In this document: positions 28,513-34,330 of the stretch, in pieces
How the letters are laid out: every line of letters starts with the position of its first letter
Numbering within the stretch: the stretch's first letter is position 1
Source: Gemmatimonadota bacterium
GTDB lineage: Bacteria > Gemmatimonadota > Gemmatimonadetes > JACCXV01 > JAHWKZ01
Direction: 5' to 3'
Assembly: GCA_046261835.1 (NCBI GenBank)
Contig: JBHEOA010000098.1
Location: 1 to 46,424, forward strand
Length of the DNA stretch: 46,424 bases
Position numbers and translations under genes: made by a program
Notes under the pieces: generated by a model
What the model was told of the DNA's origin: nothing
Databases searched by the model: none
What the model saw: only the letters and a program-made list of their open reading frames with translations

Positions 28513-29864
28513 CGCCGGGCCTCCGATGCTTCGGCCTCTCCATCGGCACCCTCGCGGTTCGCCCGGCAAGGGATCGTCTCCGCTTCGGTCACGATCCAGT
28601 CTACAGGCACGTCTCGGGGAGAGTGCGGTACCCCCTCCACGATCTGCAAGGAGTAGGCCAGCCCGACCTTGGGTGCCGCGACGGCAGCAAGGAAGCGGTC
28701 GTAATAGCCGGCGCCGAAACCGATGCGATGGCCCTGCCGGTCGAACGCGATTCCGGGGACCAGGACCACGTCGATCGCCGAGGGCGCGATCGGGCGCGCG
28801 CGCGCCGGATCAGGCTCCCAGAGGCCGCGCGGGCTCTCGACGAGCTCCGCCAGCGACCGGATCTCGTAGTGTTCGAGCCGCGCCGGCGACCTCACGACGC
28901 GCGGGCAGGCTATGCGCTTCCCCTGCTGGAGGGCGTCGAGCGCGATCGCGCGCGTCTCGACCTCGCCGTCGACGGCGCCGACGTAGAGGTGGACGACGCG
29001 CGCCTCGCGGTATGGCTCGAGCTCGAAGAGCCGCGCGGCTATCCTTTCACTGAGCGCCGTCCGGGCGGCAGCGTCCATCGCGCGTCGACGCGCGAGATAA
29101 TCCCGTCGCAACCCGGACTTGACCGAGGGTGTGGCGTCGTCCTCATCGAGGAGCCGCCGGGCCAGCAGGATCAGATCCGCGTTGCCTTGCGCCGAGGACC
29201 CGTCCGGCAACGTCAGCGTGTCTTCGAGCCCGATCCGCGTCGGATAGCCACGACGCGAGGCTTCACGCAGGAGCGGCCACGCCGTCGCGTCGACGCCGTG
29301 GAGGATCCGGGGGCACGTCACTCCCCTCCGGTCGAGGGCGGCTTCGATCTCGGAGACGTGACTCAGTGCATCGGAAAGATCCTGCTCCTGGGGCTCGAGG
29401 AGGACGCGAAGGCACTTGGGCGCGAGCCGGCTTCGCGAAAACTCGAGCGCCGCCTCCCGACTCGCGATCCCGGCCTCGACCCCGATCCCGCGGGAGAGGA
29501 GAAGCCGCGCCAGATCCGCGGCGCCCGGCTCGTCGAAGTTCACCGACGCGAAATCGGGCAGGCTCTCCCATGCCGCCGCGAGCTCGGCGCGCCGGGCTGG
29601 AGAGTCGACGATCCAGAGACCCGAGCTGATTCCGAGAGGCGCTCCAGGGCATGCGGCGCGCACCGCGAGGAGGACTCGGGCCACGTCGCCGGGCGAGAGG
29701 CTCTCCCGGCCCTGCGCGTCGCGCACGTGCACGTGGATGGCATCCGCGCCCGCGTCCACCGACGCGCGTGCCTCGGCCGCGATGTGGTCCGGGGTGACGG
29801 GAATGGACGGGTGCTCGCCCGGGTCGCGCGCGCCATTGATCGCGGCCTCGAGGAGCGTTCTCAG
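28509..29864 (-). CDS. Fusion: beta-keto acid cleavage enzyme (DUF849/BKACE) + 5-formyltetrahydrofolate cyclo-ligase
   Basis: AINGAR...PVTP, GADAIHVHVRD, RIGLED, then in frame KSGLRR, GEVET, LVPGIAFDRQGHRIGFGAGYYDRFL, DVPVDWIVTE; CTG 29864 overlaps the nfeD stop. Confidence 0.82.
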   Translation of the reverse strand: MRTLLEAAINGARDPGEHPSIPVTPDHIAAEARASVDAGADAIHVHVRDAQGRESLSPGDVARVLLAVRAACPGAPLGISSGLWIVDSPARRAELAAAWESLPDFASVNFDEPGAADLARLLLSRGIGVEAGIASREAALEFSRSRLAPKCLRVLLEPQEQDLSDALSHVSEIEAALDRRGVTCPRILHGVDATAWPLLREASRRGYPTRIGLEDTLTLPDGSSAQGNADLILLARRLLDEDDATPSVKSGLRRDYLARRRAMDAAARTALSERIAARLFELEPYREARVVHLYVGAVDGEVETRAIALDALQQGKRIACPRVVRSPARLEHYEIRSLAELVESPRGLWEPDPARARPIAPSAIDVVLVPGIAFDRQGHRIGFGAGYYDRFLAAVAAPKVGLAYSLQIVEGVPHSPRDVPVDWIVTEAETIPCRANREGADGEAEASEARR

Positions 29865-31219
29865 CTCCGGCGCACCCGCAACACGAGGCCCTGGGCCTCT
29901 ACCACCTCGACCGTCTCCCCCGGCTCGATCGTCTCGTCGGCGCGGGCCGCCCAGATCTCGCCGCGCACCGCGACCTGGCCTTGCGGATCGATACGGCGTC
30001 GCACTACCCCGCGCTCGCCCACCAGGCCTTCGCGACCGGTCGTCGGTCTGGATCGCCACGTGCGGTACGCCTTGCCGAGCGCGAAGACGAAGAACCCGGC
30101 GGTCAGGACCGCGGCGGGGATGATGACGCTCCAGCTCACGCGGAAGAATGGCTCCGGGCTGTCGAATAGCATCGTGGCGCCCAGGACGAAGGCGATAACC
30201 CCGCCCACGGTCAGGAGGCCGTGCGAGATGACCTTGATCTCGGCGATGAACAAGATGAGCGAGAGCAGGATCAGCAGCACCCCCGCGTAGTTGACCGGCA
30301 AGGCCTGGAGCGCGAAGAATGCGAGGATCAGCGAGATCCCTCCCACCACGCCGGGCAGGATCGCGCCGGGATTCATCAGCTCGAAGAAGATCCCATAGAT
30401 GCCGATCAGCATGAGCACGAATGCGATGTTCGGATTGGCGATCGCCGCGAGGATCTTGAAGCGCAGGCCGGGGTCGATCGTGCGAACCTCGGCCTCGGCG
30501 GTGGCGAGCGTCACGGTGCGGTCGATGACCTCGACCTCCATTCCGTCGATCCGATCGAGCAGGACTTCGATCGTCGGCGCGATTAGATCGATCACGTCGA
30601 GCTCGAGCGCCTGGTTCTCGGTGATCGAGGCCGCTTCGGTGACCGCTCGGACCGCCCAGTCGGCGTTGCGCCCGCGCTTTTCGGCGATGGTGCGGATGAA
30701 GGCGACCGTGTCGTTGAGGATCTTCTGGTCGAGCGCGTTGTCTCCTTTGGCCTCCTGGGCGGCGGAATCGGCGGGAGCGGGTCCGCCCGGCATCGGAGTA
30801 TCGCCCCCGAGCTGAATCGGGGTCGCTGCTCCGATGTTGGTGCCCGGCGCCATGGCGGCCACGTGGGCCGCGAGTGTGACGAAGACCCCCGCCGATCCGG
30901 CGCGCGCGCCGCCCGGCGCCACCCATACGACGATCGGGACGGGGCTCGCCAGGATCTCCTGGATGATGTCGCGGGTCGATTCGACGAGACCGCCTGGCGT
31001 ATCGAGCTCGATTACGAGCGCCTGGGCGCGCGCTTCGGCGGCGTCGTCGATCGCGTCGCCGATGAGCTCCGAGGAAGCGGGGGAGATCGCCCCGTCGAGG
31101 ACCAGCCGGTGGACGACGGCCCCCCCGGCGCGCGTGTCGGTCTGCGCCGGCGCCGAACCGAGAGCGGCTAGAAGGGCGGAGGCCAGGAGGAAGCGGGGAA
31201 GACCGCGCGCGAGAAGCAC
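29861..31219 (-). CDS. nfeD: NfeD family membrane-bound serine protease
   Basis: LDTPGG, ARAGSAG, AAMAPGTNIGAATP, C-terminal OB fold GEIWAA; GTG 31219. Confidence 0.92.
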   Translation of the reverse strand: MLLARGLPRFLLASALLAALGSAPAQTDTRAGGAVVHRLVLDGAISPASSELIGDAIDDAAEARAQALVIELDTPGGLVESTRDIIQEILASPVPIVVWVAPGGARAGSAGVFVTLAAHVAAMAPGTNIGAATPIQLGGDTPMPGGPAPADSAAQEAKGDNALDQKILNDTVAFIRTIAEKRGRNADWAVRAVTEAASITENQALELDVIDLIAPTIEVLLDRIDGMEVEVIDRTVTLATAEAEVRTIDPGLRFKILAAIANPNIAFVLMLIGIYGIFFELMNPGAILPGVVGGISLILAFFALQALPVNYAGVLLILLSLILFIAEIKVISHGLLTVGGVIAFVLGATMLFDSPEPFFRVSWSVIIPAAVLTAGFFVFALGKAYRTWRSRPTTGREGLVGERGVVRRRIDPQGQVAVRGEIWAARADETIEPGETVEVVEAQGLVLRVRRS

Positions 31220-31327: not shown

Positions 31328-33016
31328 ATGATCCGCTACCGCCTCGCGCTCCTCCTCCTCGCGACGGCCGCGCCCGCAGCGGCGCAGCAGCCTCGCTGGT
31401 GGTCGCCGGCGTACGCGGGGCACGCCATGGTCGTCTCCGCGGAGCGCAACGCCTCCGAGGCGGGTCTCGAGGTGATCCGACGCGGCGGCAGCGCCGTCGA
31501 TGCAGCGATCGCCACCCACTTCGCGCTCGCCGTCACGCACCCCTCCGCCGGGAATCTCGGTGGCGGCGGCTTCCTCGTCTTCCGCGACGCTCAGGGCCGC
31601 GTCTTCTCCTACGACTACCGCGAGAAGGCGCCCCTCGGCGCGACGCGCGACATGTACGTCCGGAATGGCGAGGTCGTCGACTCCCTTTCGGTCGTGGGGG
31701 GCCTGGCGGCCGGGGTGCCCGGATCGGTCGCCGGGATGTGGCTTGTCCACCGGAAGCATGGGACGCTGCCGTGGAAGGACCTGATCCAGCCGGCGGTCGA
31801 GCTCGCCGAGCGCGGCTTCGCCATCGACCCGACGCTGGCGGGGGCAATCCGGGGGGACCGGGAGCGGCTCGCGCGCGATCCCGCCGCGCGCGAGGTCTTC
31901 TTCCCCGGTGGCCGGACCCTCGAGACCGGCGACACCCTGCGCCAGACCCAGCTCGCGCGCACGCTTCGGCTCGTCGCCGAGGGCGGACCCGACGTTTTCT
32001 ACCGGGGCGAGATCGCCGATTCGATCGTGCGCGCCACCCGCGTCGCGGGCGGCATCATCACCCGCGAAGACCTGGCGAGCTACGAGGCGGTGGAGCGCGC
32101 GCCCGTCACCTTCGAGTACCGCGGTCACACGATCCACGCGATGGCTCCCCCCTCCTCGGGGGGCCTCACGATGAAGCTTATTCTCGACCAGATCGAGACG
32201 TTCGACATGAAGGCCTATCCGTTCCACTCGGCGGCCAGCGTACACCGGATCGTGGAGTCGATGCGGCGGGCGTTCGCGGTCCGGAACGCGCTCATGGGAG
32301 ATCCCGATTTCGCAACGATTCCCGACTCGATCCGGACCGACCTCTTCGCGGAACGGCTAGCCGCCACGATCGACACCCTGCGCGCGACGCCTTCGGCCGA
32401 GGTCGCTTTTGGAGCTGCGCCGGCGCCGGGGGGTGGTGATCAGACTACCCACTTCTCGATCGTCGACGACCAAGGCAACGCCGTCGCCTCGACCACGACG
32501 CTCAACGACGGGTTCGGAAATCGCGTGATGGCCGCCGGCTTCCTCCTCAACGACGAGATGGACGACTTCACGATCGCCCCGGGCGTTCCCAACCAGTACG
32601 GCCTGGTTCAGGGAGAGGCGAACGCGATTGAGCCGGGCAAGCGGATGCTCTCGGCGATGACGCCGACGATCGTCGAGGTGGACGGAGAGCTCCGGTATGT
32701 GGTCGGTACGCCCGGTGGCCCCACCATCATCACGACCGTGGCGCAGGTCCTCATCCACCTGCTCGATTACGGGATGACGATGGCCGAGGCGGTCGATGCC
32801 AAGCGACTTCACCACCAGCACCTGCCCGACGTCGTGCGGGTAGAGCCGTTCGGGTTCTCTCAGGACACCGTGGATCGGCTGACCGCGATGGGTCACGAGG
32901 TTGGGATCCGCGGCGGTTACTCGGGAAGGGTCGAGGGGATCGAGGTGGATCGCGCTTCGGGGTTCCTGTTCGCGCGGAGTGACCTGCGGGGCGGAGGCTA
33001 CGCGGCGGGGTACTAG
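31328..33016 (+). CDS. ggt: Gamma-glutamyltransferase
   Basis: GGSAVDAA, GNLGGGGF, DYREKAP, TTHFSIVD, LNDEMDDF, PGKRMLSAMTP, GTPGG. Confidence 0.95.
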   Translation: MIRYRLALLLLATAAPAAAQQPRWWSPAYAGHAMVVSAERNASEAGLEVIRRGGSAVDAAIATHFALAVTHPSAGNLGGGGFLVFRDAQGRVFSYDYREKAPLGATRDMYVRNGEVVDSLSVVGGLAAGVPGSVAGMWLVHRKHGTLPWKDLIQPAVELAERGFAIDPTLAGAIRGDRERLARDPAAREVFFPGGRTLETGDTLRQTQLARTLRLVAEGGPDVFYRGEIADSIVRATRVAGGIITREDLASYEAVERAPVTFEYRGHTIHAMAPPSSGGLTMKLILDQIETFDMKAYPFHSAASVHRIVESMRRAFAVRNALMGDPDFATIPDSIRTDLFAERLAATIDTLRATPSAEVAFGAAPAPGGGDQTTHFSIVDDQGNAVASTTTLNDGFGNRVMAAGFLLNDEMDDFTIAPGVPNQYGLVQGEANAIEPGKRMLSAMTPTIVEVDGELRYVVGTPGGPTIITTVAQVLIHLLDYGMTMAEAVDAKRLHHQHLPDVVRVEPFGFSQDTVDRLTAMGHEVGIRGGYSGRVEGIEVDRASGFLFARSDLRGGGYAAGY

Positions 33017-33023
33017 CAGGTCT

Positions 33024-33157
33024 CGGCGCTCGGGAGGATGGATCTCGGCGACGCCACCTTTGAAGACGGCCCGCGCAGCAGTCCGTTCTACCGAGCGCTC
33101 CGATTCTGCGACCATATCCGGTTTTAACGTCGCCGGGATCCATCCTCCCGAGCGCCG
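33024..33157 (-). ncRNA. Candidate structured element, copy A (134 nt; strand inferred from homology to copy B)
   Basis: 30-bp inverted repeat 33024-33053/33128-33157 with one mismatch; minus-strand interior TTAAAAC...AAGGTGG and an apical stem. Confidence 0.5.
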
Positions 33158-33277
33158 CGGCTCACAAGCGCCCCGCGATCCACTGCCTGCGCCTCGCCCA
33201 CGCCCGTCCCAAGCCCCGCTCATCCCCGTGCCAGCGCCCTTTCCCGTGCTCCCGCGACTCCGCGGATCTGGTGTGCG

Positions 33278-33409
33278 ATGGGCGTGGGGAGAATGCTCCT
33301 CGGAGGCGTTAAAACGGGGTGCGAGTCAAGATGGAAGGTTCGGCCACCTGAGAGGCGAACTTCCGATCGGGAAGGTGGCGCCTCCGAGGGGCGTTCTCCG
33401 CACGCCCAT
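33278..33409 (+). ncRNA. Candidate structured element, copy B (132 nt)
   Basis: 31-bp inverted repeat 33278-33308/33379-33409 (2 G-U, 1 mismatch); interior TTAAAAC...AAGGTGG; apical stem GGAAG(G)TTCG/CGAACTTCC. Confidence 0.5.
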
Positions 33410-33444
33410 AACCTCCTGACCCCCAGAGCCGGACGGGACGCGGA

Positions 33445-34290
33445 CTAGGGCGCGGGAACCTCGATGGACTCGCGCAGGGTGATGTCGATAGGCGTGCCGG
33501 AGGGAACCACAACCTCGTGGTCGCTCGCGCCGGCCATCAGTACGCCGCCGAGGGCGCCAACGACCGCCCCGATCACTGCTCCCTTCCTGCCTCCCAAGAC
33601 CCCGCCGACACCCGCCCCGCCGGCGGCGCCGCCGATTACCTGCCCAGGCTGGGGCCCGCCGCTGGTGTCGGCGGGTCGGCCCGCGATCGAGGCGATCTCG
33701 GCGTCGAGCGGAAGCCGCGCACCACTCGGGAGAACCAGCGCTCGGAAGTCGAGCTCGATCCGACCGGCCTGGTCATCGTCGGCTCGAGTCACACCGGCGA
33801 CGCGACCCTCGACGAGAGCGCCGGGCTCGAGGGCCGTGTGCCCCTCGATCGTAACGGAGCGCATCGTCCGGGCAGCGAATCGGTCGCCAACCCGAATCGT
33901 CGCCGAATGAAGGGGGGTCCTGAGCTCGAGGGCCAGGCGAGTTCCCGCTTCGAGCACGAAGCGGTCCGGCGCCTCATCCGTCTCGGCATCGGGCTCCTCG
34001 AGTTCAGGAGGCGGTGAGATCCCGACGCGCTCTTGAAGGCCCCCCGTTTCCGAAGGTGACCCCAAGGGGTCCGGCTGCGCCTCGGGGGGCGCGACTTCGC
34101 GCTCCTCGATCACGATCACCTCGGGTTCGGCAACCGGCGGCAAAGAATCGGAGAGAGCCGCGTCATCGGCGCCGGCTGGACGCGTCGTGTCGGCTTCGAC
34201 CACGATCGGGGGCTCCTCACCACCGCGACGACAGCCCGCAGCCACGACGAGCAGTCCGGTGCCGATGATCGCGGCGATGCTTCGGATCAT
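33445..34290 (-). CDS. Lipoprotein with VirB10/TrbI-like beta domain and glycine zipper
   Basis: Lipobox AAGC; LEAGTRLALELRTPLHS...GDRF, GALVEGRV; GGAAGGAGVGGVLGG zipper; VVPSGTPI. Confidence 0.7.
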   Translation of the reverse strand: MIRSIAAIIGTGLLVVAAGCRRGGEEPPIVVEADTTRPAGADDAALSDSLPPVAEPEVIVIEEREVAPPEAQPDPLGSPSETGGLQERVGISPPPELEEPDAETDEAPDRFVLEAGTRLALELRTPLHSATIRVGDRFAARTMRSVTIEGHTALEPGALVEGRVAGVTRADDDQAGRIELDFRALVLPSGARLPLDAEIASIAGRPADTSGGPQPGQVIGGAAGGAGVGGVLGGRKGAVIGAVVGALGGVLMAGASDHEVVVPSGTPIDITLRESIEVPAP

Positions 34291-34330
34291 TCTTGGCGTT
34301 CCTGTCCGTTGCACGAAATGAGCGTCAGCC

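What the first reader, a model, noticed from the sequence alone, without database searches (positions are those of the whole stretch)
33024..33409. Divergent pair of homologous ~133-nt rod-shaped elements with covarying stems and an invariant TTAAAAC/AAGGTGG loop: candidate new ncRNA or ssDNA element family
Seen: between convergent ggt and lipoprotein genes lie two self-complementary units, A (33024-33157) and B (33278-33409), in opposite orientation. A(-) reads CGGCGCTCGGGAGGATGGATCCCGGCGACG-TTAAAACCGG...AAGGTGG-CGTCGCCG.... B(+) reads ATGGGCGTGGGGAGAATGCTCCTCGGAGGCG-TTAAAACGGG...AAGGTGG-CGCCTCCG.... The 30-31-bp arms differ at many positions between copies yet each stays almost perfectly paired (e.g. 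GACG/CGTC versus GGCG/CGCC). The unpaired motifs bordering the stem are identical, and each copy has an apical stem of different sequence. Conserved loops with covarying stems imply selection on structure, unlike MITE ends or terminators. The stem-bubble-stem shape recalls 6S RNA (a promoter mimic; the usual 6S neighbour ygfA is about 4 kb away) but is shorter. Alternatives are a protein-binding RNA or a REP/HUH-nuclease-type ssDNA substrate mobilised in trans. The strand is uncertain: G-U pairs in A's outer stem favour plus, those in its apical stem favour minus.
Basis: partly seen in the sequence, partly recalled or inferred. Interest (0 to 1): 0.85.

Follow-up and report, generated by a model that had tools for sequence, protein, structure and literature searches.

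The report
Dispersed twin-hairpin intergenic repeat element
The two hairpins are the two halves of one roughly 430-base non-coding repeat that has been inserted between genes at several places in this genome, a new variant of the palindromic intergenic repeats known from other bacteria and not a pair of small-RNA genes.

Summary
A (33022-33160, minus) and B (33276-33411, plus) are ~135-nt hairpins with 30-31-bp stems (z about -8.7). They share GTTAAAAC/AAGGTGG junction motifs (0.00 expected by chance).

They are not separate genes. Together with a spacer and a ~30-nt tail they form one composite repeat. This MAG holds the composite at three unrelated loci (ggt/lipoprotein, aroE/aroC, two cytochrome c genes), plus two solo hairpins.

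Same-family relatives have these gene pairs abutting: 21 of 21, 25 of 25 and 14 of 14 loci have short gaps. The composites are therefore insertions.

Stem covariation is strong: 14 of 31 pairs change on both sides, and 0 of 500 shuffles reach that. One metagenome contig carries a B-type hairpin before the orthologous cytochrome gene, with quite different but still paired arms.

There is no Rfam match, no 6S, no promoter-like site, and no Y1 transposase in 31 family genomes. The genome holds at least two further long-hairpin repeat families.

Verdict: a MITE/REPIN-like structured repeat without a RAYT, a new variant of a known kind, of moderate interest.

The parts
33022..33160 (-). Hairpin module A (A-type). 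Arms 33024-33053 and 33128-33157. On the minus strand GTTAAAAC lies at 33128-33121 and AAGGTGG at 33060-33054.
   Evidence: covariance model R1 scores 121.7 bits on the minus strand against 55 on the plus strand
33161..33275 (.). Spacer between the two modules. It is C-rich on the plus strand, is the least conserved part, and varies in length.
   Evidence: Against the C69 copy, 64 of 88 aligned positions are identical, with 33 gap letters. A contig of run X1 has an 18-nt insertion behind 33224. No promoter-like site was found.
33276..33411 (+). Hairpin module B (B-type). Arms 33278-33308 and 33379-33409, GTTAAAAC at 33308-33315, AAGGTGG at 33372-33378.
   Evidence: R1 scores 119.8 bits on the plus strand against 46.7 on the minus strand; MFE -85.4 sense against -69.4 antisense
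33410..33442 (+). Tail of the B module (AACCTCCTGACCCCCAGAGCC...). It is alignable with the sequence behind the B-type hairpins of C69, C82, C112 and L133. At C69, C82 and L133 it runs up to the start codon of the next gene.
   Evidence: alignment A4
33017..33444 (.). The whole intergenic insertion between the ggt stop (33014-33016) and the stop of the convergent gene (33445-33447).
   Evidence: 428 nt here against 0-232 nt at 14 syntenic loci of same-family genomes
31328..33016 (+). Left flanking gene, gamma-glutamyltranspeptidase. Not part of the element.
   Evidence: PF01019, E 1.1e-163
33445..34329 (-). Right flanking gene, a putative secreted or lipoprotein-like protein without a Pfam match. 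Not part of the element.

Best explanation
A and B are the two inverted hairpin modules of one non-coding composite repeat of about 430 nt. Its order is antisense A, spacer, sense B, then a short tail. The composite has been copied into intergenic spacers of this lineage. It behaves like a MITE or a REP-doublet (REPIN/BIME), but no cognate transposase is recognisable.

Shown: the element is dispersed, with three composites and two solo hairpins at five unrelated loci. It is an insertion relative to same-family genomes. It has no coding potential shared between copies and no Rfam match. Pairing of its 30-bp arms is actively maintained while the arm sequence drifts.

Inferred: the element is carried passively in the transcripts of its neighbours. 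At aroE-aroC and at the cytochrome c pair it lies inside an operon, with B in sense directly before the downstream start codon. The constraint on the hairpin most likely acts on that single strand, the TTMAAAC-to-GGTGG strand. An invariant junction sits on top of the long stem: two U-G pairs, a three-base bulge (AAA or CAA), then ACC/GGU.

The most likely effect is that of other intergenic stem-loop repeats: a very stable intercistronic or 3'-end RNA hairpin that blocks exonucleases or is cut by a double-strand-specific RNase. This would uncouple or stabilise the neighbouring cistrons. How new copies are made is unknown.
For: Copies and composite:
- blastn and model R1 find 7 hairpins in the 2.38-Mb MAG. 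An eighth, diverged solo copy lies at C112.
- The C98 and C69 composites align over 409 nt at 74.6%, and their flanks are unrelated (alignment A4).
- The neighbours are ggt/unknown, aroE/aroC, cytochrome c/cytochrome c-EB_dh, and PD40/CarD.

Insertions relative to same-family genomes:
- aroE-aroC: HSP gaps of 0-93 nt at 21 of 21 loci, against 412 nt here.
- Cytochrome c pair: adjacent at 25 of 25 loci, with overlapping stop/start such as ATGA in the 19 junctions printed, against 404 nt here.
- ggt/convergent gene: 0-232 nt at 14 of 14 syntenic loci, against 428 nt here.

Structure:
- 14 of 31 pairs change on both sides; 95.3% of cells are paired against 79.6% shuffled (0 of 500 reach this) and 40-55% slid.
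- In C98 versus C69, arms are 115 of 122 identical, loops 109 of 143 and the spacer 64 of 88.
- Of 69 metagenome pattern hits, 1 (L133) has hairpin flanks. It sits before the ortholog of the C82 cytochrome gene (85.7% amino-acid identity over 91 aa, 79% nucleotide identity). Its arms are only roughly 60-66% like C82_B (counted by eye from the alignment), yet they are fully paired.

Strand:
- The sense strand folds better in 8 of 8 copies here and in L133. The difference is 16-24 kcal/mol for B-types.
- The U-G/U-G junction pairs are kept in 7 of 7 and 6 of 7 sequences.

Not a stand-alone gene: 0 promoter-like sites, and no Rfam hit beyond sub-threshold plant miRNA hairpins.

Real DNA, not an assembly artefact: contigs of runs X1, X5 and X7 bridge ggt into A and B into the right-hand gene.

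Precedent: long stem-loops and compensatory changes are reported in MITE-like bcr1 and in REPINs (passages read).
Against: - No consistent target-site duplication. Flank-to-flank alignment scores are ordinary at C98 (p 0.63) and C69 (p 0.50). Only C82 has a 10-nt direct repeat (p 0.04).
- No autonomous copy and no transposase of five families was found in the MAG: PF01797, PF01609, PF00665 and PF01548 give nothing, and PF07282 gives only a sub-threshold hit. The MAG is 90% complete and fragmented, so this is weak evidence.
- Copy number is low (8).
- The family was not found outside this genome in 30 family genomes or in 150 genomes of the class, apart from weak long-hairpin hits that lack the motif. 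It was also not found in 185,579 species genomes by exact pattern; the 18 hits there all lack hairpin flanks.
- There is no transcription evidence of any kind.
- A B-type hairpin before the same gene in L133, with arms that drifted while staying paired, fits a retained functional element at least as well as selfish DNA.
- Perfect arms could also be kept by arm-to-arm template switching, without any selection.
Confidence: 0.6

Rival explanations
1. The B module plus its tail is a cis-acting leader or intercistronic RNA that controls translation or processing of the gene behind it. The long hairpin and the tail, a CCUCC-like stretch followed by GGAG a few bases before the start codon, would gate ribosome access. 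The copies at other loci would be by-products of its spread.
For: B is in sense and its tail runs to within about 8-10 nt of the start codon of aroC, of the cytochrome c/EB_dh gene, and of that gene's ortholog in L133. In L133 a mirrored tail also precedes the divergent gene on the other side. B-types have the largest sense/antisense energy difference, 16-24 kcal/mol.
Against: The downstream genes are unrelated. At C98, C112 and C176 no gene follows in that orientation. The same genes in 21 and 25 relatives do without the element and are translationally coupled instead. The CCUCC/GGAG reading is by eye, in 67% GC DNA, and was not tested statistically.
Confidence: 0.15
2. A classical MITE: a deletion derivative of a DDE-type insertion sequence, whose 30-bp arms (or the A and B modules as a pair) are the terminal inverted repeats bound by a transposase supplied in trans.
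For: It is small, non-coding and dispersed, has inverted arms, and is an insertion relative to relatives. A 10-nt direct repeat flanks the C82 copy, and ACTAG lies on both sides of the C98 copy. Arms are better conserved than loops between the two most similar copies.
Against: The distances from candidate duplications to the hairpins differ between loci, and two of three flank comparisons are at chance level. Arm sequences differ by a third between A and B and by more in C82, C176, C112 and L133, so one protein would have to accept very different ends. The invariant motifs lie at the inner end of the arms, not at the termini. No PF01609, PF00665 or PF01548 match in the MAG.
Confidence: 0.12
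3. A single-stranded-DNA hairpin substrate moved by an HUH/Y1 enzyme, that is, a REP/REPIN-RAYT or IS200/IS605-type system.
For: Two related palindromic units lie in inverted orientation with a spacer, as in REPINs and BIMEs. Compensatory changes preserve the hairpin, as reported for REPINs (passages of PMC3116915; abstract of PMC3337134 in the listing). One strand folds better than the other.
Against: PF01797 matches 0 of 31 genomes of the taxonomic family, while the same search rings in 6 of 14 control genomes. Units are about 135 nt, not 20-40 nt. There are 8 copies, not tens to hundreds. The conserved sequence is at the top of the stem, not at its foot.
Confidence: 0.07
4. Stand-alone trans-acting small RNAs, either a 6S-like promoter mimic or a protein-binding RNA, transcribed divergently from the spacer.
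For: Rod shape with an internal junction, covarying stem, invariant junction bases including tandem U-G pairs. ygfA lies about 4 kb away.
Against: No promoter-like site in or around the spacer, and no terminator-like site after either unit. RF00013 matches nothing in the genome and nothing lies next to ygfA. Two composites lie inside operons. The loci are not conserved in 30 family genomes. The spacer is the least conserved part.
Confidence: 0.05

Closest known systems
REPIN / BIME (REP doublets of Pseudomonas and enterobacteria)
   Same: Two related palindromic units in inverted orientation, separated by a less conserved spacer. They are dispersed in intergenic DNA, and hairpin pairing is kept by compensatory changes (passages of PMC3116915 read; abstract of PMC3337134 seen in the listing). 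The two-type unit arrangement of BIMEs (Y and Z units) is recalled, not checked here.
   Different: Units here are about 135 nt, each with its own 30-bp stem and a 65-75-nt structured loop. There are only 8 units. The invariant motif sits at the stem/loop junction instead of the foot of the stem. No RAYT in 31 family genomes.
MITE-type structured repeats (bcr1 of the Bacillus cereus group, ERIC, Correia/nemis)
   Same: Non-coding repeats of 100-160 bp that fold into long stem-loops and lie beside or between genes. For bcr1, transcription and compensatory base changes are reported (passages of the review PMC3184786).
   Different: Those have defined terminal repeats and short fixed duplications (TA, or 5 bp). 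Here the duplication is inconsistent. The element is a two-module composite, and copies within one genome are as little as 60-75% alike yet almost perfectly paired.
6S RNA (Rfam RF00013)
   Same: Rod-like fold with an internal unpaired region.
   Different: No model match here or anywhere in the genome. The element is multi-copy, about 135 nt instead of about 185 nt, inside operons, and not next to ygfA.
Two further long-hairpin repeat families of the same genome (here called family 2 and family 3)
   Same: Same geometry: about 125-160 nt, 25-35-bp arms whose outer parts differ between copies but stay complementary, and a 65-110-nt loop with a conserved core. Neither has an Rfam match.
   Different: The sequences are unrelated. 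Family 2 is more numerous (22 hits of its 20-nt 3' motif here) and is found in 15 of 30 family genomes. The family of this finding was found only in this genome and in one metagenome contig.

Membership tests
MITE (non-autonomous DNA transposon) | Small, non-coding, several dispersed copies | tested here: met
   8 hairpins at 5 loci with unrelated flanks. The only ORF starting in B (33278-33448) has no counterpart start in the C69 and C82 copies.
MITE (non-autonomous DNA transposon) | Terminal inverted repeats | tested here: met
   30-31-nt complementary arms in each module, and modules A and B inverted relative to each other.
MITE (non-autonomous DNA transposon) | Target-site duplication of fixed length at every copy | tested here: not met
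   Flank alignments against 3000 random genome pairs give p 0.63 (C98), 0.50 (C69) and 0.04 (C82, a 10-nt repeat). The candidate repeats lie at different distances from the hairpins.
MITE (non-autonomous DNA transposon) | Filled versus empty orthologous sites | tested here: met
   Tight junctions at 21 of 21, 25 of 25 and 14 of 14 same-family loci, against 404-428 nt here. The relatives belong to other genera, so these are not strain-level empty sites.
MITE (non-autonomous DNA transposon) | Autonomous relative with the same ends and a transposase | tested here: inconclusive
   No further R1 hits in the genome. PF01797, PF01609, PF00665 and PF01548 are absent and PF07282 is sub-threshold. The MAG is 90% complete in 184 contigs.
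REP / REPIN-RAYT | Inverted doublet of palindromic units forming hairpins, with compensatory changes | tested here: met
   compared with passages of PMC3116915
REP / REPIN-RAYT | RAYT (Y1 transposase, PF01797) gene in the genome | tested here: not met
   0 of 31 family genomes, 18 of them at least 90% complete. The control search rings in 6 of 14 known genomes.
REP / REPIN-RAYT | Short units (about 20-40 nt) with invariant terminal sequence, in tens to hundreds of copies | tested here: not met
   Units are about 135 nt, there are 8 copies, and the invariant bases lie at the inner junction. The unit size of REPs is recalled.
6S RNA | Match to the 6S covariance model | tested here: not met
   No RF00013 hit at E up to 10 in 32500-34000, and none in the whole genome at E up to 0.01.
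6S RNA | Single conserved gene with its own promoter, commonly just upstream of ygfA | tested here: not met
   Five loci. ygfA lies at 28584-29120, about 4 kb away with other genes between. 0 promoter-like sites were found, though the scan is a crude sigma-70 scan.
bcr1-like transcribed structured repeat | Transcribed as RNA | not testable with these tools
   No RNA holder of this stretch is listed. The one run guessed to be RNA gave only depth-2 contigs.

The most novel reading that the evidence does not exclude
These hairpins, and perhaps the two other long-hairpin families of the lineage, may be a class of RAYT-independent mobile structured modules whose pairing is selected on the transcribed strand. 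In this reading, a B-type module with its invariant U-G/U-G plus three-base-bulge junction and its SD-carrying tail acts as a portable intercistronic unit. It would replace translational coupling between neighbouring genes with hairpin-dependent processing or translation control. It would be spread by a mechanism not yet described, with no transposase of five common families recognisable.
Probability: 0.2. Interest if true: 0.6.

Novelty: new variant of a known kind. Interest (0 to 1): 0.4.

Why it matters
Intergenic palindromic repeats are usually described in well-studied proteobacteria and firmicutes, and are explained by a RAYT or a parent IS. Here an uncultured, small-genome, 67% GC lineage carries at least three families of unusually long (30-bp-stem) hairpin repeats, with no Y1 transposase in any of 31 family genomes.

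The family studied here shows compensated stem evolution between paralogous copies. It shows the same between copies placed before orthologous genes in two organisms. It has also split two translationally coupled gene pairs.

That makes it a compact case for two open questions. What keeps such hairpins paired: RNA function, an ssDNA intermediate, or arm-to-arm correction? And what does their insertion do to operon expression?

It is not a new class of regulatory RNA on present evidence.

Tried and rejected
- **Rfam.** An E-value-mode search over 32500-34000 gave only plant miRNA-precursor models far below their gathering scores (44 versus 168 bits, and so on). These are generic long GC hairpins and were rejected. 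Nine loci of the other hairpin families gave 0 hits at E up to 0.1.
- **6S next to ygfA.** No Rfam hit in 29000-30000, and that stretch does not fold better than shuffles (z +2.72).
- **Exact-pattern scan of genome contigs.** 18 hits, about the number expected by chance. None has complementary flanks, with or without gaps allowed.
- **First metagenome scan, with a strict pattern.** 0 hits.
- **Second, looser metagenome scan.** 69 hits, of which 68 lack hairpin flanks.
- **Plasmid and phage collections** (blastn, distant mode): no match.
- **Model R1 in 30 family genomes.** Two weak hits (G001:C65 at 47.6 bits, G012:C270 at 36.5 bits). Both are long hairpins without the TTMAAAC motif and are not counted as members. 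The class-level search (150 genomes) re-found only the G001 hit. In these searches only 22-107 of several hundred to about 1300 first-look candidates per genome were scored, so weak members can be missed. R1 itself missed the C112 copy.
- **Target-site duplications.** See; rejected as a general feature.
- **Expression.** No RNA holder is listed. Run X18 is only guessed to be RNA and gave depth-2 contigs, so no conclusion was drawn.
- **Deletion alleles.** No contig joint that skips the element was reported in the 4 runs laid; the only joints were 22-24-nt skips inside the spacer. This says nothing about whether empty sites exist.
- **Taxonomy.** The Atlas look-up of aroC gave only generic chorismate synthase clusters.
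- **Supplements** of the two papers read were not opened.

Full report
**1. The observation.** The intergenic stretch 33017-33444 lies between the stop of ggt (PF01019, E 1e-163) and the stop of a convergent gene without a Pfam match. It holds two self-complementary units.
- The repeat finder gives B arms 33278-33308/33379-33409 (31 nt, 90% complementary). It gives an A repeat whose 30-nt core 33024-33053/33128-33157 is 96.7% complementary.
- All four strands fold far better than shuffles (z -7.95 to -8.79, 0 of 200 shuffles).
- A on the minus strand aligns with B on the plus strand at 75% column identity, with invariant CGTTAAAAC and AAGGTGGCG blocks. The motif pair is not expected by chance in the window (0.00 expected).

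**2. Not two genes but one composite repeat.** blastn of the units against the laid genome found a second pair on contig C69 and a third on C82. The genome is a MAG of 2.38 Mb in 184 contigs, 67% GC and 90% complete. A solo copy lies on C176.
- A covariance model built from these seven (R1) finds exactly these seven in the genome. Each scores 100-130 bits on one strand and 36-60 bits on the other.
- At all three paired loci the order is the same: antisense A-type, a spacer of about 70-120 nt, sense B-type, then a tail of about 30 nt.
- C98 and C69 align over 409 nt at 74.6%, and nothing outside that aligns (alignment A4).
- A genome-wide scan for long inverted repeats added an eighth, diverged solo member on C112. 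It has TTCAAAAT and GGGTGG at the junction and the same TGACCCCAGA tail as B.
- The neighbours are unrelated housekeeping genes: ggt, aroE/aroC, two cytochrome c genes, and a PD40-repeat protein/CarD.

**3. The composites are insertions.** In genomes of the same taxonomic family (other genera, about 60-73% protein identity) the same gene pairs are adjacent.
- aroE and aroC lie 0-93 nt apart by HSP ends at 21 of 21 loci, often with overlapping stop and start. Here they are 412 nt apart.
- The two cytochrome c genes are adjacent at 25 of 25 loci. The 19 junctions I printed show stop/start overlaps of the ATGA or GTGA kind. Here the gap is 404 nt.
- ggt and the convergent gene keep their synteny at 14 loci with gaps of 0-232 nt (five of them 0-2 nt), against 428 nt here.
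- Two of these genomes, G009 and G013, are marked unpublished. Without them the counts are 19 of 19, 23 of 23 and 12 of 12.
- Contigs of three DNA runs laid on the region bridge ggt into A and B into the right-hand gene at about 90-99% likeness. One carries an 18-nt insertion in the spacer, so the structure is not an artefact of this assembly. One of these runs may be the source sample.

**4. The hairpin is under constraint.**
- On the seven-sequence alignment, 14 of 31 consensus pairs have changes on both sides.
- 95.3% of cells are paired, against 79.6% after shuffling the 3' partners (0 of 500 shuffles reach this) and 40-55% when partners are slid.
- Between the two most similar composites the arms are 115 of 122 identical, the loops 109 of 143 and the spacer 64 of 88, with 33 gap letters in the spacer.

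The most telling case came from the second metagenome scan. Of 69 pattern hits, one (L133, a 1343-nt contig) has complementary flanks. Its hairpin stands directly before the ortholog of the C82 downstream cytochrome gene (85.7% amino-acid identity over 91 aa; 259 of 328 coding nucleotides identical). The junction motifs, blocks of the loop and the tail are kept. The arms are only about 60-66% like those of C82_B (counted by eye from the alignment), yet they pair almost perfectly (-73.7 kcal/mol).

Either pairing is selected or the two arms correct each other. Sequence alone does not decide between these.

**5. Which strand, and is it RNA?**
- The strand that reads TTMAAAC before GGTGG folds better in 8 of 8 copies and in L133. 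The difference is 2-5 kcal/mol for A-types and 16-24 for B-types.
- On that strand the stem is continued by two U-G pairs (7 of 7 and 6 of 7 sequences), a three-base bulge and ACC/GGU. On the other strand these would be C-A mismatches.
- In both operon copies and in L133, B is in sense with the downstream gene and its tail ends 8-10 nt before the start codon.
- This fits a constraint acting on the mRNA strand. Copies are few and related, and no expression data could be had.
- No sigma-70-like promoter lies in 32800-33700. The one terminator-like site found there lies inside ggt, not next to either unit.

**6. What it is not.**
- Rfam gives only sub-threshold plant miRNA hairpin models.
- 6S (RF00013) matches nothing in the genome. 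ygfA is indeed at 28584-29120, but nothing 6S-like lies beside it.
- Y1 transposases (RAYT or IS200 type) are absent from all 31 family genomes, while the same search rings in 6 of 14 control genomes.
- DDE_Tnp_1, rve and IS110-type transposases are not found in the MAG either.
- Target-site duplications are not consistent.
- There is no similarity to plasmids or phages.

**7. Context.** The same genome has at least two other families of long-hairpin repeats with the same geometry and likewise complementary but variable outer arms.
- Family 2 gives 16-33 motif hits here, and 22 with a 20-nt motif at up to 2 mismatches. That motif occurs in 15 of 30 family genomes but in only 8 of 170 other genomes of the class.
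- Family 3 has about 9-10 copies.
- Neither matches Rfam.

Long-stem intergenic repeats are therefore a trait of this lineage. The finding is its rarest and most restricted family.

**8. Comparison and verdict.** In behaviour the element is closest to REP doublets (REPIN/BIME) and to structured MITE-like repeats such as bcr1. For both, hairpin-preserving compensatory changes are in print (passages read; abstracts listed). It fails the defining tests of both: no RAYT and no short REP unit, and no fixed duplication or parent IS.

I file it as a new variant of a known kind: a composite, RAYT-less, twin-hairpin intergenic repeat.
- That it is an inserted dispersed repeat, not a pair of sRNA genes, I hold at about 0.8.
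- The full best explanation, including co-transcription and a constraint on the transcribed strand, I hold at 0.6.
- Its mode of spread is unknown.

Interest is moderate (0.4). The covariation is striking and the lack of any recognisable mobilising enzyme is an open point, but the category is familiar.

Noticed in passing
G000 contigs, e.g. C115:2040-2163, C16:10008-10134, C80:10872-10999, C120:23411-23538 (loci L097-L100): A second family of hairpin repeats of about 125-160 nt. It has a conserved small central hairpin (GAGGCGTAG..CTACGCC) and outer arms that differ between copies but stay complementary. Its 20-nt 3' motif gives 22 hits at up to 2 mismatches in this genome, and it occurs in 15 of 30 family genomes. 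No Rfam match.
   Followed up: partly
G000 C24:44875-45010, C123:3907-4032, C120:10423-10554, C31:11599-11746, C177:9762-9909, C86:220-349: A third hairpin-repeat family with a conserved core (GGGGAGACCCCGCAGGC ... CCGAGGAGGCTCCCCGAC) and variable complementary arms. About 9-10 copies, no Rfam match.
   Followed up: partly
G000 C13:29771, C31:11692, C92:658, C30:20104 and others: A 22-nt mini-hairpin module (GACCCGCTTCGCGGGTGCCCCG, 10 hits at up to 3 mismatches) occurs nested inside some family 2 and family 3 copies. The repeats therefore appear modular.
   Followed up: no
L133 (metagenome contig), reverse strand about 815-1010: The B-type hairpin fills nearly the whole spacer between two divergent genes that both begin with signal-peptide-like sequences. 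The tail is present on both sides as a mirror image, each ending at a start codon. The left neighbour differs from that in G000, so a rearrangement breakpoint coincides with the hairpin.
   Followed up: partly
window 33410-33442 and the homologous tails on C69, C82 and L133: The tail contains a CCTCC-like stretch followed some 8-12 nt later by GGAG (AGAG in the window copy). This could form a small helix that covers the Shine-Dalgarno sequence of the next gene. Seen by eye only.
   Followed up: no
window 28584-29120 (-): 5-formyltetrahydrofolate cyclo-ligase (ygfA, PF01812, E 3e-44). No 6S RNA model match beside it or anywhere in this 90%-complete MAG.
   Followed up: yes
window 33217-33250: The C-rich spacer varies in length between related strains. 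Run X1 has an 18-nt insertion behind 33224, and contigs of X7 and X18 skip 22-24 nt.
   Followed up: no
L021 (G001:C65:53741-53849) and L022 (G012:C270:906-1046): Long hairpins (arms of about 30-40 nt) in two same-family genomes that score weakly with model R1 but lack the TTMAAAC motif. They may be further, unrelated hairpin repeats of the lineage.
   Followed up: partly
G000 C102:45087-45238 and C60:5778-5898: Further single long hairpins (arms of 41 and 28 nt) that belong to none of the three families.
   Followed up: no
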